DNA of 64,000 nt from Escherichia phage vB_EcoM_G2494: sequence record MK327935.1. One strand, given 5' to 3'. Positions 15,389 to 44,448 of this stretch are shown one piece after another. The notes beneath the pieces were generated by a model. It saw only the letters and a list, made by a program, of their open reading frames with translations. It searched no databases and was not told where the DNA came from. The position numbers and the translations under genes were made by a program. How positions within the stretch are numbered: the first letter of the stretch is position 1; each line of letters opens with the position of its first letter.

Positions 15389-15723
15389 TTGTAACCCTCC
15401 TCTGAAAGCACATCCCAGATCGTTGAGTCAAGGTGCATTAAATTCCACATAATAGAGTCATAACTACCGAAGCCAGAAGTAAAAATTACATCACACTGGC
15501 GATATGTCTTATGAAAATCGGTGGCTGTCTCTGCATCAATCGGCATATCGTCACCTGAAAGCACCAGACATTTAAGAATCATAACTCTGTTAGCCGTTGG
15601 CGCTTGCTTAGTCTTTTCAGCATATTTTTCGATGATCCGTTTTGCCTTTTCTTCTTTGATACGTCCAGACCAAATCCGGTTTCGGTATTGATTCATAATA
15701 ATTTCAATCACATCATTTTGCAT
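15385..15723 (-). CDS. hypothetical protein
   Basis: ORF track 112 aa. Confidence 0.5.
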   Translation of the reverse strand: MQNDVIEIIMNQYRNRIWSGRIKEEKAKRIIEKYAEKTKQAPTANRVMILKCLVLSGDDMPIDAETATDFHKTYRQCDVIFTSGFGSYDSIMWNLMHLDSTIWDVLSEEGYK

Positions 15724-15922
15724 TCTTCACGGTCTCCATAATTGTTTTGTAAGCCAGCTTAAGATGATCACCGAAAAACTTTGCAGTGTTACCCTTCGGA
15801 TCACGGAGCATGGTTTCTACGATCTCATCGGCAGTAACAATTTCTCCTTTCTTTGCTGCATGTTCTACCATATACTTCAAAGTTTCTTCGGAAGCAAGTG
15901 CTGCGGCTACTGGATTAATCAT
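15713..15922 (-). CDS. hypothetical protein
   Basis: ORF track 69 aa; GGAGAA SD; promoter 15952-15980 upstream. Confidence 0.45.
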   Translation of the reverse strand: MINPVAAALASEETLKYMVEHAAKKGEIVTADEIVETMLRDPKGNTAKFFGDHLKLAYKTIMETVKNAK

Positions 15923-15980: not shown

Positions 15981-15985
15981 CACCT

Positions 15986-16020
15986 AAAAACGAAAAAGCC
16001 ACCCTTTCGGATGGCTTTTT
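15986..16020. terminator. bidirectional rho-independent terminator (conserved hairpin family)
   Basis: gccaccc-tttc-ggatggc flanked by A-run upstream and T-run downstream; same motif as 3592-3628 and 21826-21857. Confidence 0.55.
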
Positions 16021-16250
16021 GATTATATTTTATTCACGTCCATTTGTATAGTAGTGTTTGAATCGACCTTTGCTAAACTCGTTAAACATAGTAACCAATT
16101 CACCATCCCTTTCCAATGATAAACCTTCCTCGTCTTAGACGGGTCTTCCGATTAGGTAGTAATTGAACACGCGAAAGTATGAGGAAGCCAAATAGTTGTG
16201 TTAATGCTAGTATTCTTTTACTTCTGGTATGTATCCCACAGTGACTAACA

Positions 16251-16649
16251 TTAAGCCAGTCGAGTGAGTTTATAAATTGTTTTAAAGCATAGAGCTTTGA
16301 TATCGTCTAAAACGCTCTGTAACGAGCTATCAACATCATTATAAATCTCACTAGCCATTTGCGTTAACTCTTGCAAATAGGCAATTTCGCTAATCTCCTT
16401 GCGGACGACCAACTTTGGCTGATAACGACCAGTGATCCCAATATTGGTTTCAGTGAAATTATCAACCAATTCTTGCATTTCAAGATAGAACTCTTCTAGA
16501 GCCTTATGTTTTGCATAAGATCCAGGACCAGTTACCCCAAAATGCGCAGAATGCATATAAGTAACACTCATCAGACATTCACCGATAAAGCGGTCAACTT
16601 TATTAGCCTTTCCCTCTTCGGACGTCTTTAGAAAATCACTGAATTTCAT
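16251..16649 (-). CDS. hypothetical protein
   Basis: ORF track 132 aa. Confidence 0.5.
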   Translation of the reverse strand: MKFSDFLKTSEEGKANKVDRFIGECLMSVTYMHSAHFGVTGPGSYAKHKALEEFYLEMQELVDNFTETNIGITGRYQPKLVVRKEISEIAYLQELTQMASEIYNDVDSSLQSVLDDIKALCFKTIYKLTRLA

Positions 16650-26699: not shown

Positions 26700-26885
26700 T
26701 CAGAAATATGCAATATAGTTTGCCAGTCCTACAGAGTCATCATTCGGCATTGCTTTTACTGCCAGTTCAAACCCTGCTTCAACTTTCTGTTTAGCGGATT
26801 CTTCGTTATAACCCCAGATTACCAGAATAGCTACTACGTTTTCTTTGCTTACTGCTTTCAGTGCTTTAGTGATGCGACGTGCCAT
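26700..26885 (-). CDS. hypothetical small protein
   Basis: ORF track 61 aa; promoter 26932-26960 upstream. Confidence 0.4.
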   Translation of the reverse strand: MARRITKALKAVSKENVVAILVIWGYNEESAKQKVEAGFELAVKAMPNDDSVGLANYIAYF

Positions 26886-26931
26886 AATTTGATTCTCCGT
26901 TTAAGAAAGTGTGTTTCGTTTCGATGGGTGT

Positions 26932-26960
26932 ATTATGCTATAGGCCGGATCTGGTGTCAA
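26932..26960 (-). promoter_or_regulatory. sigma70-like early promoter (TTGACA-17-CATAAT)
   Basis: Minus strand TTGACAccagatccggcctatagCATAAT. Confidence 0.55.
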
Positions 26961-26985
26961 CAACTTTTTTAAAAAATTTTAGGCA

Positions 26986-27012
26986 ATAAAAAAGCCACTC
27001 CGAAGAGTGGCT
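26986..27012 (-). terminator. rho-independent terminator
   Basis: Minus RNA agccacuc-uucg-gaguggcu followed by UUUUUUAUU. Confidence 0.55.
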
Positions 27013-27162
27013 TATAGGGAAGGTAGCGAATCTTCCTTGTCTCCAACCTGCTAGCGGCCTAGCAAGTGAATGCTTTAGCGTACCGGATCGCCCACATACG
27101 CTGTAATAAATGCGGCTAGGTGACGTCCAAATCATTCTAACCGCGCTGTCTTTAGTTCACTA

Positions 27163-27381
27163 TTATTTATATCGCTTTCTCTCGCGACGTTTTTGATCTT
27201 CTTCCTTGATAGAGTTAAATGCATCAAAAAGACACATGAAACTAATAATAAACATAACCGTATTTTCTATGATATCCCACGGCTTCGCATCAGTACAGAT
27301 CCCCCAAACGGTAAGAAATGCAAATAGTGCAGAAGAGATCACAAGCATGATACTTGCTAAGATATAAAAAGTCATTTTCAT
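27163..27381 (-). CDS. small hydrophobic membrane protein
   Basis: ORF track 72 aa. Confidence 0.35.
   Translation of the reverse strand: MKMTFYILASIMLVISSALFAFLTVWGICTDAKPWDIIENTVMFIISFMCLFDAFNSIKEEDQKRRERKRYK
27164..27171 (-). promoter_or_regulatory. T4 late-promoter-like box TATAAATA
   Basis: Minus strand TATAAATA overlapping the stop of ORF 27163-27381 and facing a ~150-nt ORF-free interval that ends at terminator 26986-27012. Confidence 0.35.
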
Positions 27382-27572
27382 GGTTTTACCTCAATTCTTC
27401 GATATTCATCACACATCCACGCAGTAAGCAAGAATCCCAACACATAAGCAACAAAATACGTTAATGCTTCTTCTGGTTCGGTGCTATGCGCCATCATCAG
27501 ACCAGCGAGAAAGGTCTTAACAATTACATTTAAAATAATTAGCCACGCAAATAATTTCATCGTTTGCCCCAT
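27378..27572 (-). CDS. small hydrophobic membrane protein
   Basis: ORF track 64 aa. Confidence 0.35.
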   Translation of the reverse strand: MGQTMKLFAWLIILNVIVKTFLAGLMMAHSTEPEEALTYFVAYVLGFLLTAWMCDEYRRIEVKP

Positions 27573-27796
27573 TTCGGTCGAGTCTTTTCAAACTTATACA
27601 TTCCGTAACAATCTCGAATCATCCACGTAACAAGAGCACCAGTCAACACAGACAATACACAGAAGAAGTAAAACGGTCCGGTTGCATTATCAACATGAGC
27701 AAGCCAGGTAAAGAAAACACATGCTAAGAATGTGAAGAACATCATAAAACACAAGAAAGCAAAATATTTTATGCTACTCATAGCGCCACCATACAA
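27557..27796 (-). CDS. small hydrophobic membrane protein
   Basis: ORF track 79 aa. Confidence 0.35.
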   Translation of the reverse strand: MYGGAMSSIKYFAFLCFMMFFTFLACVFFTWLAHVDNATGPFYFFCVLSVLTGALVTWMIRDCYGMYKFEKTRPKWGKR

Positions 27797-27884
27797 CAGA
27801 TCATAAGAAAACCCAACGCAATAAGAATTGCATCAAATTTAGTGAACTCCGGTCCACCTATCAACATCATTCGTTCTATTTCGT

Positions 27885-28127
27885 TCATAGCGTACAAAGC
27901 CATTTAAAAGCACCACATAAAGCGAGCAGAATACTAGGTATAAACGAGATCAAAACAAGGTTGCAAAAATCATCTAAGGTAACACCGGAATAGCTACCTA
28001 CTGTAACAACACCGATCATCAGACACAGAAAGAAAACAAATGCAATCAGAAACAAAGTATTACTAAACAGTTTAGTGATCATTAGACACCCCACGACGAT
28101 CAATTTCAAAAACTTTTTTATCATCAA
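27885..28127 (-). CDS. small hydrophobic membrane protein
   Basis: ORF track 80 aa. Confidence 0.35.
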   Translation of the reverse strand: MMIKKFLKLIVVGCLMITKLFSNTLFLIAFVFFLCLMIGVVTVGSYSGVTLDDFCNLVLISFIPSILLALCGAFKWLCTL

Positions 28128-28921: not shown

Positions 28922-28950
28922 ATTATGCTATAGTCGTTTATGGTTGTCAA
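28922..28950 (-). promoter_or_regulatory. sigma70-like early promoter (TTGACA-17-CATAAT)
   Basis: Minus strand TTGACAaccataaacgactatagCATAAT. Confidence 0.55.
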
Positions 28951-32817: not shown

Positions 32818-32825
32818 TATAAATA
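32818..32825 (+). promoter_or_regulatory. T4 late promoter box TATAAATA (gene 53)
   Basis: TATAAATA about 32 nt upstream of gp53 ATG. Confidence 0.55.
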
Positions 32826-44428: not shown

Positions 44429-44448
44429 TATGTATTTTATAAATAATA

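What the first reader, a model, noticed from the sequence alone, without database searches (positions are those of the whole stretch)
27013..27171. ORF-free ~150-nt interval between a late-promoter-like box and a strong terminator: candidate small RNA
On the minus strand a TATAAATA box (27164-27171) faces an interval with no credible ORF and several short stem-loops (for example ggaag...cttcc at about 27020-27038), ending at a terminator (26986-27012). T4 encodes small stable RNAs in its accessory region, so an analogous non-coding RNA is plausible. I could not fold it as a tRNA.
Basis: inference. Interest (0 to 1): 0.4.

Follow-up and report, generated by a model that had tools for sequence, protein, structure and literature searches.

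The report
Conserved structured non-coding RNA tail in RB49-like phages
A 150-base gene-free stretch in an RB49-like (Krischvirus) coliphage is a conserved, hairpin-rich, non-coding segment at the end of an early operon; it is a reasonable but unproven candidate for a small phage RNA, and the late promoter proposed for it has no independent support.

Summary
The window is a Krischvirus (RB49-like T4-type coliphage).

**What the parts are**
- The terminator is the stem-loop of a known PeSL cassette (terminator plus early promoter) in front of the ORF117c homolog.
- The TATAAATA box is the Tyr-Lys-stop end of the ORF118c homolog. It occurs at chance frequency, and one natural variant lacks it.

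**The 149-nt interval (27014-27162, minus strand)**
- It is non-coding: 1- and 2-nt indels in relatives break every ORF.
- It is single-copy, found only in Krischvirus, and annotated as RNA in none of the records examined.
- It matches no tRNA, no Rfam family, neither T4 RNA C nor RNA D, and no E. coli DNA.
- It folds into three robust hairpins, plus a fourth hairpin or a closing helix.
- Hairpins 1 and 3 never change across 21 distinct sequences. The hairpin-2 loop is hypervariable. All five stem changes keep pairing, and only on the minus-strand RNA.
- Outside hairpin 2 it diverges about 10-fold less than ORF118c third codon positions.

**Verdict**
The best reading is a functional RNA domain at the 3' end of the early dmd-ORF118c transcript. 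It may be released as a small RNA of about 170 nt. Covariation is thin and the function is unknown.

The parts
27163..27381 (-). Upstream gene: RB49 ORF118c homolog, 72 aa, two hydrophobic stretches, unknown function. It is the last gene of the early operon that contains dmd.
   Evidence: ORF list. Annotated as a hypothetical protein in RB49, GEC-3S and phiS. PHROG 15168, function unknown. Found only at >=79% identity in Krischvirus-like contigs.
27164..27171 (-). TATAAATA, a T4-type late-promoter motif. It overlaps the codons TAT-AAA-TAA (Tyr-Lys-stop) of ORF118c.
   Evidence: Exact match. The window holds 6 copies against 6.8 expected by chance. The motif is removed by a 14-nt deletion in metagenome contig MAVA01000028.1 (L014).
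27157..27165 (-). Three consecutive in-frame stop codons, TAA TAG TGA, that end ORF118c.
   Evidence: Read directly from the sequence.
27014..27162 (-). The non-coding interval: 149 nt, 49% G+C against 40% for the window. It is the candidate RNA domain.
   Evidence: Frameshifting indels in relatives. G+C is in the top 3% of 149-nt windows. Present in all 58 Krischvirus GenBank records at 96-100% identity and in no other phage. Single copy.
27112..27144 (-). Hairpin 1 (8 bp, internal loop, 4 bp, UUGGAC loop). The stem sequence never varies. The only change seen is C to U in the loop.
   Evidence: Folds, alignment fold, pair counts.
27077..27102 (-). Hairpin 2. The 7-bp lower stem is kept through G-U and compensatory changes. 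The apex is hypervariable, with at least 10 alleles including 1- and 2-nt indels.
   Evidence: Alignment. Pair 62/85 shows GC, GU and AU; pairs 61/86 and 64/83 show G-U variants.
27042..27070 (-). Hairpin 3 (CUUGCUAG-GCCG-CUAGCAGG plus a weak lower extension). The core is invariant. The only changes are one loop change (C to U, L044) and one break in the weak lower extension (C to A, kaaroe). A GGAG lies at 27044-27041 at its 3' foot.
27018..27036 (-). Hairpin 4 (GGAAG / CUUCC, 9-nt loop). It competes with an alternative closing helix, 27162-27154 paired with 27033-27024, which would enclose hairpins 1-3 in a cloverleaf-like junction.
   Evidence: Hairpin 4 appears in the MFE. The closing helix appears. 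One A to G change (L008) gives a G-U pair in hairpin 4.
26986..27013 (-). Intrinsic terminator (9-bp stem, UUCG loop, U6). It is the stem-loop half of a PeSL cassette.
   Evidence: Terminator scan. Annotated as a terminator in GEC-3S and G37-3. PeSL definition from PMC2839356.
26886..26985 (-). The other half of the PeSL cassette: A/T-rich tract, early sigma-70 promoter (TTGACA 26960-26955, 17 nt, CATAAT 26937-26932), 5' UTR and Shine-Dalgarno sequence of ORF117c.
   Evidence: Promoter scan, 11 of 12 matches. Annotated as a promoter in GEC-3S. Repeated elsewhere in the window.
26700..26885 (-). Downstream gene: ORF117c homolog (DUF7421). It belongs to context only and is not part of the RNA.
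   Evidence: Pfam PF24196. Homologs in ~50-kb coliphages have no such upstream interval.

Best explanation
The interval is a selectively maintained, structured, non-coding RNA domain. It forms the 3' end of the early polycistronic transcript that starts at the PeSL promoter near 28950, runs through ORF125c, ORF124c, dmd and ORF122c-ORF118c, and stops at the PeSL terminator at 27013-26986.

The RNA folds into three robust hairpins (H1, H2, H3). In addition it forms either a fourth hairpin or a closing helix, and then the terminator hairpin. H1 and H3 are constrained in sequence. H2 is constrained only in its stem.

I infer that the domain acts as RNA in one of two ways. It may protect or regulate the operon message in cis. 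Alternatively, and slightly more likely in my judgement, it accumulates as a stable 3'-end fragment of about 150-180 nt, as enterobacterial 3'-UTR-derived small RNAs do, and binds a protein or RNA partner.

Shown here: non-coding status, location in a transcribed early unit, restriction to Krischvirus, conservation pattern, and strand-specific structure-compatible variation.

Inferred only: existence of a discrete RNA species, how it is processed, and every aspect of function.
For: - **Non-coding.** Indels of 1 and 2 nt in H2, a 1-nt deletion at 27150 and a 1-nt insertion in H4 break all ORFs on both strands.
- **Transcription context.** Every gene here is on the minus strand. No terminator is predicted between the early promoters at 28950 and 28503 and the terminator at 27013. 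GEC-3S is annotated the same way.
- **Conservation against ORF118c.** Window versus four divergent relatives gives 1-3 differences in 123 nt outside H2, compared with 16-28 of 72 at ORF118c third codon positions (Fisher p 4e-7 to 3e-12) and 9-19 of 144 at codon positions 1+2 (p 0.0004-0.02).
- **Heterogeneity within the interval.** H2 differs at 3-8 of 26 positions (p 0.017 to 1e-5 against the rest). H1 is invariant yet flanked on both sides by diverged sequence. Divergence of H2 tracks divergence of ORF118c. A recent recombinational replacement of the whole block is therefore unlikely.
- **Stem variation.** All five changes in helices keep pairing on the minus-strand RNA: AU to GU, GC to GU to AU, GC to GU, AU to GU. 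Each would be a C-A mismatch on the + strand. Substitutions in H1, H3 and the terminator fall in the loops, apart from one break in H3's weak lower extension.
- **Composition and stability.** G+C is 49% against 40%. H1-H3 form in every fold context tried.
- **Gap size.** It is the second-largest gene gap in 50 kb of a tightly packed genome.
Against: - Covariation is thin. 40 of 48 modelled pairs never vary, only one pair shows a double change (2 sequences), and the RNAalifold covariation term is about zero.
- All known copies are at least 93% identical and come from one genus.
- The fold energy of the interval alone is not significant (z = -1.7), and the + strand folds almost as well.
- The region is mosaic. 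For example, in L010 ORF119c is identical to the window while ORF118c is 29% diverged at third positions.
- The downstream PeSL and ORF117c are also little diverged (third positions 3-8%). Outside H2, the interval is not significantly more conserved than that local yardstick (p 0.12-0.26).
- No transcript data exist, no target or partner is known, and no known RNA family matches.
Confidence: 0.5

Rival explanations
1. One reading: an independent small RNA of about 170 nt is transcribed late from the TATAAATA box. The start would be near 27157, at the foot of the possible closing helix, and the end at the PeSL terminator. This could hold together with the best explanation, as a second source of the same RNA.
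For: - An exact T4-type late motif lies at 27164-27171.
- T4-type late promoters need little more than this octamer (established knowledge).
- At least two other copies in the window sit at sensible late-promoter positions. The copy at 32818 lies about 33 nt before gene 53, and the copy at 44438 lies before gene 10.
- The motif is kept in 20 of 21 distinct sequences.
- A start near 27157 would put the 5' end at the base of helix 27162-27154 / 27033-27024.
Against: - The count equals the chance expectation (6 against 6.8).
- The box is the Tyr-Lys-stop of ORF118c, so coding constraint alone explains its conservation.
- A 14-nt deletion removes it in L014 while the rest of the interval is unchanged.
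- The locus lies in an early-gene region, which already supplies a transcript through the interval.
Confidence: 0.2
2. The interval is a functionless spacer, for example the scar of an old insertion or deletion. It looks conserved only because this block has a more recent common ancestry in a mosaic genome (hitch-hiking with the strongly selected ORF117c and PeSL). On this reading the H2 apex is a mutational hot spot.
For: - Mosaic divergence is evident across the region.
- ORF117c third positions are only 3-8% diverged, which is statistically indistinguishable from the interval outside H2.
- PeSLs are documented recombination sites (PMC2839356).
- Covariation is weak.
- Fold z is -1.7.
Against: - H1 (60 nt, 0-2 differences) is bracketed by diverged sequence on both sides, so a hitch-hiking block would need breakpoints exactly flanking the 26-nt H2.
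- H2 alleles form a graded series that follows ORF118c divergence. This indicates shared deep ancestry rather than recent replacement.
- Stem changes preserve pairing in a strand-specific way, 5 of 5.
- G+C is raised.
- A 149-nt dispensable spacer is retained in all 58 genomes of a phage group with very short gene gaps.
Confidence: 0.2
3. The element works at the DNA level. Examples would be a protein-binding site built from the near-palindromes GCGGTTAG...CTAGCCGC and GCTAG-GCCG-CTAGC, a recombination or replication signal, or a target or remnant of a mobile endonuclease.
For: - H1 and H3 are invariant in sequence, not merely in pairing.
- There are three CTAG-containing inverted repeats.
- The element sits beside a recombination-prone PeSL.
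Against: - The palindromes are imperfect in the way RNA tolerates (G-T on the minus strand only).
- All observed stem changes are also of that kind.
- No endonuclease gene or repeat family is nearby.
- CTAG clustering is not unusual in the window: 401 windows of 149 nt hold at least 3 copies.
Confidence: 0.07
4. The interval holds an overlooked very small protein gene. Some automatic annotations, such as UPWr_E1 and SSG23, call a CDS in or next to it.
For: CDS calls in a few GenBank records. An SD-like AAGGAAG lies at 27039-27033.
Against: - Every ORF of at least 20 aa that touches the interval is frameshifted in some relatives.
- No start codon lies at a proper distance from the SD-like motif.
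- The called CDSs differ between records and run through the terminator and promoter.
Confidence: 0.03

Closest known systems
PeSL (promoter-early stem-loop) cassettes of RB49 and phi1 (Arbiol et al. 2010, PMC2839356)
   Same: The terminator at 27013-26986, the TTGACA-17-CATAAT promoter and the Shine-Dalgarno sequence in front of ORF117c form a textbook PeSL. The cassette is repeated elsewhere in the window, and assemblies break at it.
   Different: In described PeSLs the stop codon of the upstream gene lies in the A/T-rich tract right next to the cassette. Here 149 nt of unique, G+C-rich, single-copy sequence is inserted between the stop codon and the stem-loop. The interval is not part of the repeat.
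T4 small stable RNAs: RNA C (species 1, 139 nt) and RNA D (species 2, 119 nt)
   Same: Both are non-coding RNAs of similar size on the same strand as the neighbouring early genes. Both lie in the variable region downstream of 57B and upstream of the lysis genes. Their function is also unknown (PMC3014915).
   Different: There is no sequence similarity, and a covariance model of the interval finds nothing in the T4 tRNA-rnaC-rnaD region. RNA C has a canonical tRNA T-arm (GGGUUCGAAUCCC) and is cut out of a tRNA precursor. The interval has no T-loop, no neighbouring tRNAs, and ends at an intrinsic terminator.
Enterobacterial 3'-UTR-derived small RNAs that share the terminator of the parent mRNA, such as CpxQ and SroC (from general knowledge)
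   Same: The interval lies directly after the last stop codon of an operon, is conserved more strongly than the upstream coding sequence, and ends in a strong Rho-independent terminator with a U-tail.
   Different: No processing site, seed, target or Hfq/ProQ binding is known. The element is longer and more structured than typical members. It is encoded by a lytic phage.
Phage 3'-end RNA elements that control message stability, such as T7 RNase III hairpins and lambda sib (from general knowledge)
   Same: These are structured RNAs at the 3' end of an early phage message that could determine its stability.
   Different: The hairpins here are 8-12 bp, too short for classical RNase III substrates. 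No evidence of cleavage exists.

Membership tests
tRNA or tRNA-like gene | Cloverleaf with D, anticodon and T arms that tRNA finders or covariance models can detect | tested here: not met
   ARAGORN finds 0 genes in the whole window. No tRNA or tmRNA hit in Rfam, even at E<=10 on the 601-nt region. The only resemblance is a 10-mer (CGGUUAGAAU) shared with E. coli tRNA-Asp as I recall that sequence. My rough estimate of the chance of such a match is about 0.4. BLAST against E. coli genomes finds nothing.
Any Rfam 15 family | Score at or above the family gathering threshold | tested here: not met
   No hit in the window at gathering thresholds. The best sub-threshold hits (RNAI 22.8 bits against 47; others) are driven by the terminator hairpin.
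T4 RNA C / RNA D | Sequence or structure homology to T4 rnaC or rnaD | tested here: not met
   The MAFFT alignment shows only noise-level identity. Covariance model R1 of the interval finds no match in T4 66000-78000 at E<=10.
T4 RNA C / RNA D | Location in the tRNA cluster and release from a tRNA precursor | tested here: not met
   The window has no tRNA genes. Only loose synteny holds, both lying downstream of 57B.
PeSL cassette | Stem-loop terminator plus sigma-70-like early promoter with an upstream A/T tract, followed by the Shine-Dalgarno sequence and start of a small ORF, repeated in the variable regions | tested here: met
   This holds for 26886-27013 (definition). The interval 27014-27162 itself lies outside the repeat.
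T4-type late promoter | TATAAATA octamer at the -10 position | tested here: met
   Exact match at 27164-27171 on the minus strand.
T4-type late promoter | Evidence beyond the motif: enrichment, conservation independent of coding, or a mapped late 5' end | tested here: inconclusive
   The count is at chance level. The motif overlaps Tyr-Lys-stop. It is deleted in L014. A transcript 5' end cannot be tested with these tools.
3'-UTR-derived, terminator-sharing small RNA | Position after the last stop codon, sharing the mRNA's intrinsic terminator, and conserved more than the upstream CDS | tested here: met
3'-UTR-derived, terminator-sharing small RNA | A discrete processed or primary RNA species, chaperone binding, and a base-pairing target | not testable with these tools
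   No transcriptome data for a Krischvirus turned up in the paper library. Only chance-level 10-12-mers were found within the window.
Structured RNA in general | Statistically supported covariation | tested here: inconclusive
   99.6% of cells are paired. One pair shows a double change. 3 of 500 shuffles reach the observed covariation score, but 40 of 48 pairs never vary. The RNAalifold covariation term is +0.42.

The most novel reading that the evidence does not exclude
RB49-like phages make a genus-specific, trans-acting structured RNA. It would be a cloverleaf-like junction of about 140 nt (closing helix 27162-27154 / 27033-27024 around three hairpins), followed by a terminator hairpin. It would be produced early as an operon 3' fragment and again late from the TATAAATA box. 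It would act on a host or phage protein or RNA, for example as a decoy or regulator. It sits in the accessory region that also carries dmd and the 57B (Acb1-family) gene, at the position where T4 has its still-unexplained stable RNAs C and D.
Probability: 0.12. Interest if true: 0.7.

Novelty: new member of a known kind. Interest (0 to 1): 0.35.

Why it matters
A 2010 review stated that no trans-acting small RNA or riboswitch had been functionally characterised in T4, and that the roles of T4 RNA C and RNA D are unknown (PMC3014915). I found no later report. A conserved structured RNA in a well-studied relative that is used for phage therapy (RB49, phi1, JSE, GEC-3S) would be an easy experimental entry point. 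It is single-copy, only 149 nt long, and lies in a non-essential region, so it can be deleted or mutated cleanly. It also shows that the 'empty' spacers next to PeSL cassettes are not all alike. Genome annotations of this genus currently either leave the interval blank or place spurious CDSs in it.

Tried and rejected
- **tRNA or tRNA relic.** ARAGORN and Rfam are negative. The D-arm-like 10-mer is at chance level by my rough estimate (about 0.4).
- **Known RNA families, ribozymes, riboswitches.** Rfam is negative at gathering thresholds. Only terminator-driven noise appears at E<=10.
- **Homology with T4 RNA C or D.** None by alignment or by covariance model.
- **Host-derived sequence or host mimic.** No blastn match in 5,426 complete E. 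coli genomes at E<=10.
- **Relatives outside Krischvirus.** None in 50,697 phage records by sensitive blastn. Only two IMG/VR contigs and three metagenome contigs matched, all Krischvirus-like.
- **Paralogs in the genome.** None by BLAST or by covariance model in the window and in 50 kb of RB49.
- **Relic carried in with the horizontally acquired ORF117c module.** In the ~50-kb coliphages that carry the homolog, the gene follows a 257-aa ORF after about 60 nt. Similarity covers only the -10 and 5' UTR, not the interval.
- **Small ORFs.** All are frameshifted in relatives.
- **RegB processing site.** GGAG at 27044-27041 matches only 4 of the 7 downstream consensus positions of strong sites (GGAGRAYARAA, PMC3014915), and it is partly paired. 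It remains only a speculative processing point.
- **Long-range pairing of CUUCC with the second AAGGAAGA copy inside ORF118c.** This is not conserved: relatives have AAAGAAG there.
- **Targets inside the window.** Only chance-level 10-12-mers were found.
- **Literature.** Searches for Krischvirus transcriptomes or small RNAs found nothing relevant.

Full report
**Where the window comes from.** A 1-kb query around the finding matches 58 GenBank phage genomes at 95-99.5% identity, all Krischvirus (RB49, phi1, JSE, GEC-3S, phiS and others). In RB49 the interval lies between RB49ORF118c and RB49ORF117c. All genes here are on the minus strand. They form a run of small early ORFs between 57B and the putative endolysin, and dmd is among them.

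**Check of the observation.**
- The minus strand reads ...CGA TAT AAA TAA TAG TGA ACU... So the TATAAATA box at 27164-27171 is the Tyr-Lys-stop end of the 72-aa ORF118c homolog (27163-27381), followed by two further in-frame stop codons.
- The terminator is real and strong: AAGCCACUC-UUCG-GAGUGGCUU at 27013-26992, followed by U6.
- The GGAAG/CUUCC hairpin is at 27036-27018.
- No tRNA is found in the whole window.
- TATAAATA occurs 6 times in 64 kb against 6.8 expected from shuffles, so the box by itself carries no statistical weight.

**What the terminator is.** Immediately 3' of the terminator lie an A/T tract, TTGACA-17 nt-CATAAT (11 of 12 consensus matches), a Shine-Dalgarno sequence and the ATG of ORF117c. 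GEC-3S annotates the same promoter and terminator. This is a PeSL cassette (promoter-early stem-loop), a repeated regulatory module described for RB49 and phi1. Its stem-loops terminate upstream early transcription, and the cassettes mediate modular recombination (PMC2839356). The promoter part recurs at 25939-25999 and elsewhere. Several metagenome assemblies break exactly there.

In ordinary PeSLs the upstream stop codon lies right next to the cassette. Here 149 nt of unique sequence is interposed. The resulting 278-nt gene gap is the second largest of about 99 in RB49 31.7-81.6 kb.

**Non-coding status.** Three ORFs touch the interval: 65 aa from the ATG at 27135, 25 aa from the TTG at 27046, and 28 aa on the + strand from 27110. 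They run through the terminator and promoter or overlap ORF118c. Relatives carry 1- and 2-nt deletions in the hairpin-2 loop, a 1-nt deletion at 27150, a 1-nt insertion in hairpin 4 and U-run length changes. These frameshift all of them. A few GenBank records call a CDS here, but the calls differ from record to record.

**Known families.**
- Rfam 15 gives nothing at gathering thresholds in the window. At E<=10 it gives only terminator-driven noise.
- T4 rnaC and rnaD were fetched from NC_000866 and show no similarity. RNA C has a canonical T-arm, which the interval lacks.
- A covariance model built from 17 distinct copies finds only the element itself. The search covered the window, 50 kb of RB49, the T4 tRNA/rnaC/rnaD region and four ~50-kb coliphage loci.
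- There is no match in E. coli genomes, none in phages outside Krischvirus, and no second copy in the window.

**Structure.** Hairpins H1 (27144-27112), H2 (27102-27077) and H3 (27070-27042) form in every fold context tried and in the alignment fold. The 3' part forms one of two alternatives. One is H4 (27036-27018). The other is a closing helix, 27162-27154 paired with 27033-27024, which would wrap H1-H3 into a cloverleaf-like junction.

Thermodynamically the interval alone is unremarkable (z = -1.7). With the terminator z is -3.5, but the + strand reaches -3.25. G+C is 49% against 40% for the window, in the top 3% of 149-nt windows.

**Comparative evidence.** I assembled 21 distinct copies from three sources:
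- GenBank genomes chosen for maximal difference;
- IMG/VR contigs;
- ENA, Logan and JGI contigs found through ORF118c homologs and a DNA pattern.

Variable alignment columns amount to 10% in the interval, against 19-33% in ORF118c-ORF122c and ORF115c-ORF116c. The variation is very uneven:
- The H2 apex has at least 10 alleles, including indels.
- The H1 stem and the H3 core never change.
- Substitutions in H1, H3 and the terminator fall in the loops. The one exception is a C-to-A change in kaaroe that breaks a pair in H3's weak lower extension.

Pairwise against four divergent relatives:

| Site class | Differences | Fisher p against the non-H2 interval |
|---|---|---|
| Interval outside H2 | 1-3 of 123 | - |
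| ORF118c third codon positions | 16-28 of 72 | 4e-7 to 3e-12 |
| ORF118c codon positions 1+2 | 9-19 of 144 | 0.0004 to 0.02 |
| H2 | 3-8 of 26 | 0.017 to 1e-5 |

In helices, every change keeps a standard pair on the minus-strand RNA:
- 61/86: AU to GU;
- 62/85: GC to GU to AU (the one compensatory pair);
- 64/83: GC to GU;
- 129/143: AU to GU.

On the + strand each would be a C-A mismatch. If transitions were unconstrained, about half would break pairing on a given strand, so 5 of 5 is suggestive (roughly p = 0.03) but not decisive. The formal counts show how little variation there is to test: 40 of 48 pairs never vary, and 3 of 500 shuffles reach the observed covariation score.

**Caveat: mosaicism.** Divergence along this region is patchy. 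In L010, ORF119c is identical to the window while ORF118c differs at 29% of third positions. The PeSL and ORF117c downstream are also little diverged: ORF117c third positions differ by 3-8% and its positions 1+2 by 0%. Against that local yardstick the non-H2 interval is not significantly more conserved (p 0.12-0.26).

ORF117c (DUF7421) is a special case. It has 72-80% identical homologs in ~50-kb E. coli siphoviruses, and the similarity extends into the -10 and 5' UTR but not into the interval. In those phages the gene follows a 257-aa ORF after about 60 nt.

Two points argue against simple hitch-hiking of the interval with that module. H1 is invariant although bracketed by the diverged ORF118c 3' region and the diverged H2. 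And H2 alleles form a graded series that follows ORF118c divergence. I take this as real but moderate evidence for purifying selection on H1, H3-H4 and the H2 stem.

**Where the transcript comes from.** No terminator is predicted between the early promoters at 28950 and 28503 and the terminator at 27013 (the GEC-3S annotation agrees). The interval is therefore expected to be the 3' end of the early ORF125c-dmd-ORF118c message (inference from sequence).

The late-promoter idea cannot be excluded. T4-type late promoters are essentially this octamer, and at least two other copies in the window lie just upstream of late genes 53 and 10. But this box is coding sequence. In metagenome contig MAVA01000028.1, a 14-nt deletion removes it (GATATAAATAATAG, together with a 2-nt A-run change that alters the ORF118c C-terminus), and the rest of the interval is unchanged. 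No sigma-70-like promoter is seen just upstream.

**Mechanism.**
- My best explanation (confidence 0.5) is a functional RNA domain at the 3' end of the early operon transcript. It would act either in cis on message stability or, slightly favoured, as a stable 3'-derived small RNA that shares the PeSL terminator.
- The first rival is an additional or alternative late primary transcript from the TATAAATA box (0.2, not mutually exclusive).
- The second rival is a functionless spacer conserved by linkage in a mosaic genome (0.2).
- The third rival is a DNA-level site (0.07).
- The fourth rival is a missed micro-ORF (0.03).
- A GGAG at 27044-27041 could be a RegB site, since regB is present in this phage group. 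It matches the strong-site consensus poorly (PMC3014915).

**Novelty and interest.** The element is not in Rfam. None of the records I examined annotates it as an RNA, and the PeSL paper does not mention these ORFs or any small or non-coding RNA. In kind it would be one more phage-encoded structured RNA or 3'-UTR element, so I rate it a new member of a known kind.

A 2010 review states that no trans-acting small RNA had been functionally characterised in T4 and that RNA C and RNA D remain unexplained (PMC3014915). That makes a clean, deletable candidate in RB49-like phages moderately interesting. The evidence is purely comparative, comes from one narrow genus, and says nothing about function. 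Interest 0.35.

Noticed in passing
window 15984-16250 (minus strand): A second spacer has the same layout. About 230 ORF-free nt lie between the stop codon of the rI.-1 homolog (16251-16649) and another PeSL terminator (about 16016-15986). An early promoter (TTGACA about 15980) and the ORF084c homolog (15713-15922) follow. This is the largest annotated gene gap in RB49 31.7-81.6 kb (328 nt). It is conserved at 95-99% in about 50 Krischvirus genomes and almost always unannotated. Fold z is -2.1. It has no sequence similarity to the finding. A 19-25-aa ORF near 16107-16030 is possible.
   Followed up: partly
window 26700-26960 (minus strand); loci L027-L042: ORF117c (DUF7421, PF24196) has 72-80% identical homologs in ~50-kb E. 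coli siphoviruses such as tunus, KarlJaspers and IME18. The similarity extends into the -10 box and 5' UTR (CATAAT...CATCGAAACGA). Promoter plus gene therefore looks like a module exchanged between unrelated phage families. Within Krischvirus the protein is 100% conserved, and even its third codon positions vary little.
   Followed up: partly
loci L006, L009, L010, L011, L012 (contig ends): Five independent metagenome or SRA assemblies of these phages end within about 250 nt downstream of ORF118c. That is at the PeSL repeat, which shows that the repeat breaks short-read assemblies.
   Followed up: no
L014 (MAVA01000028.1), equivalent to window 27160-27195: A natural variant carries a 14-nt deletion (GATATAAATAATAG) and two extra A in the A-run of ORF118c. 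This gives a different C-terminus (...QKNVARES*) and removes the TATAAATA box. It could be a real allele or an assembly error.
   Followed up: partly
L015 (OQVL01013596.1), equivalent to window 27031 and downstream: This contig matches the window up to GGAAGA in hairpin 4. For its last 49 nt it continues with unrelated sequence that matches nothing in the window. It is either a different downstream module or a chimeric contig end.
   Followed up: partly
window 27163-28127 (minus strand): Five consecutive small ORFs downstream of dmd (ORF118c-ORF122c homologs, 41-80 aa) all contain long hydrophobic stretches. All fall into PHROG families of unknown function. ORF118c is the most diverged gene of the neighbourhood, with 43-50% of its third-position alignment columns variable.
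   Followed up: no
window 27200-27208 and 27031-27039: AAGGAAGA occurs twice, once inside ORF118c and once as the 5' arm of hairpin 4. In the window sequence either copy can pair with CUUCC at 27018-27022. The ORF copy is not conserved in relatives (AAAGAAG), so a switch is unlikely.
   Followed up: yes
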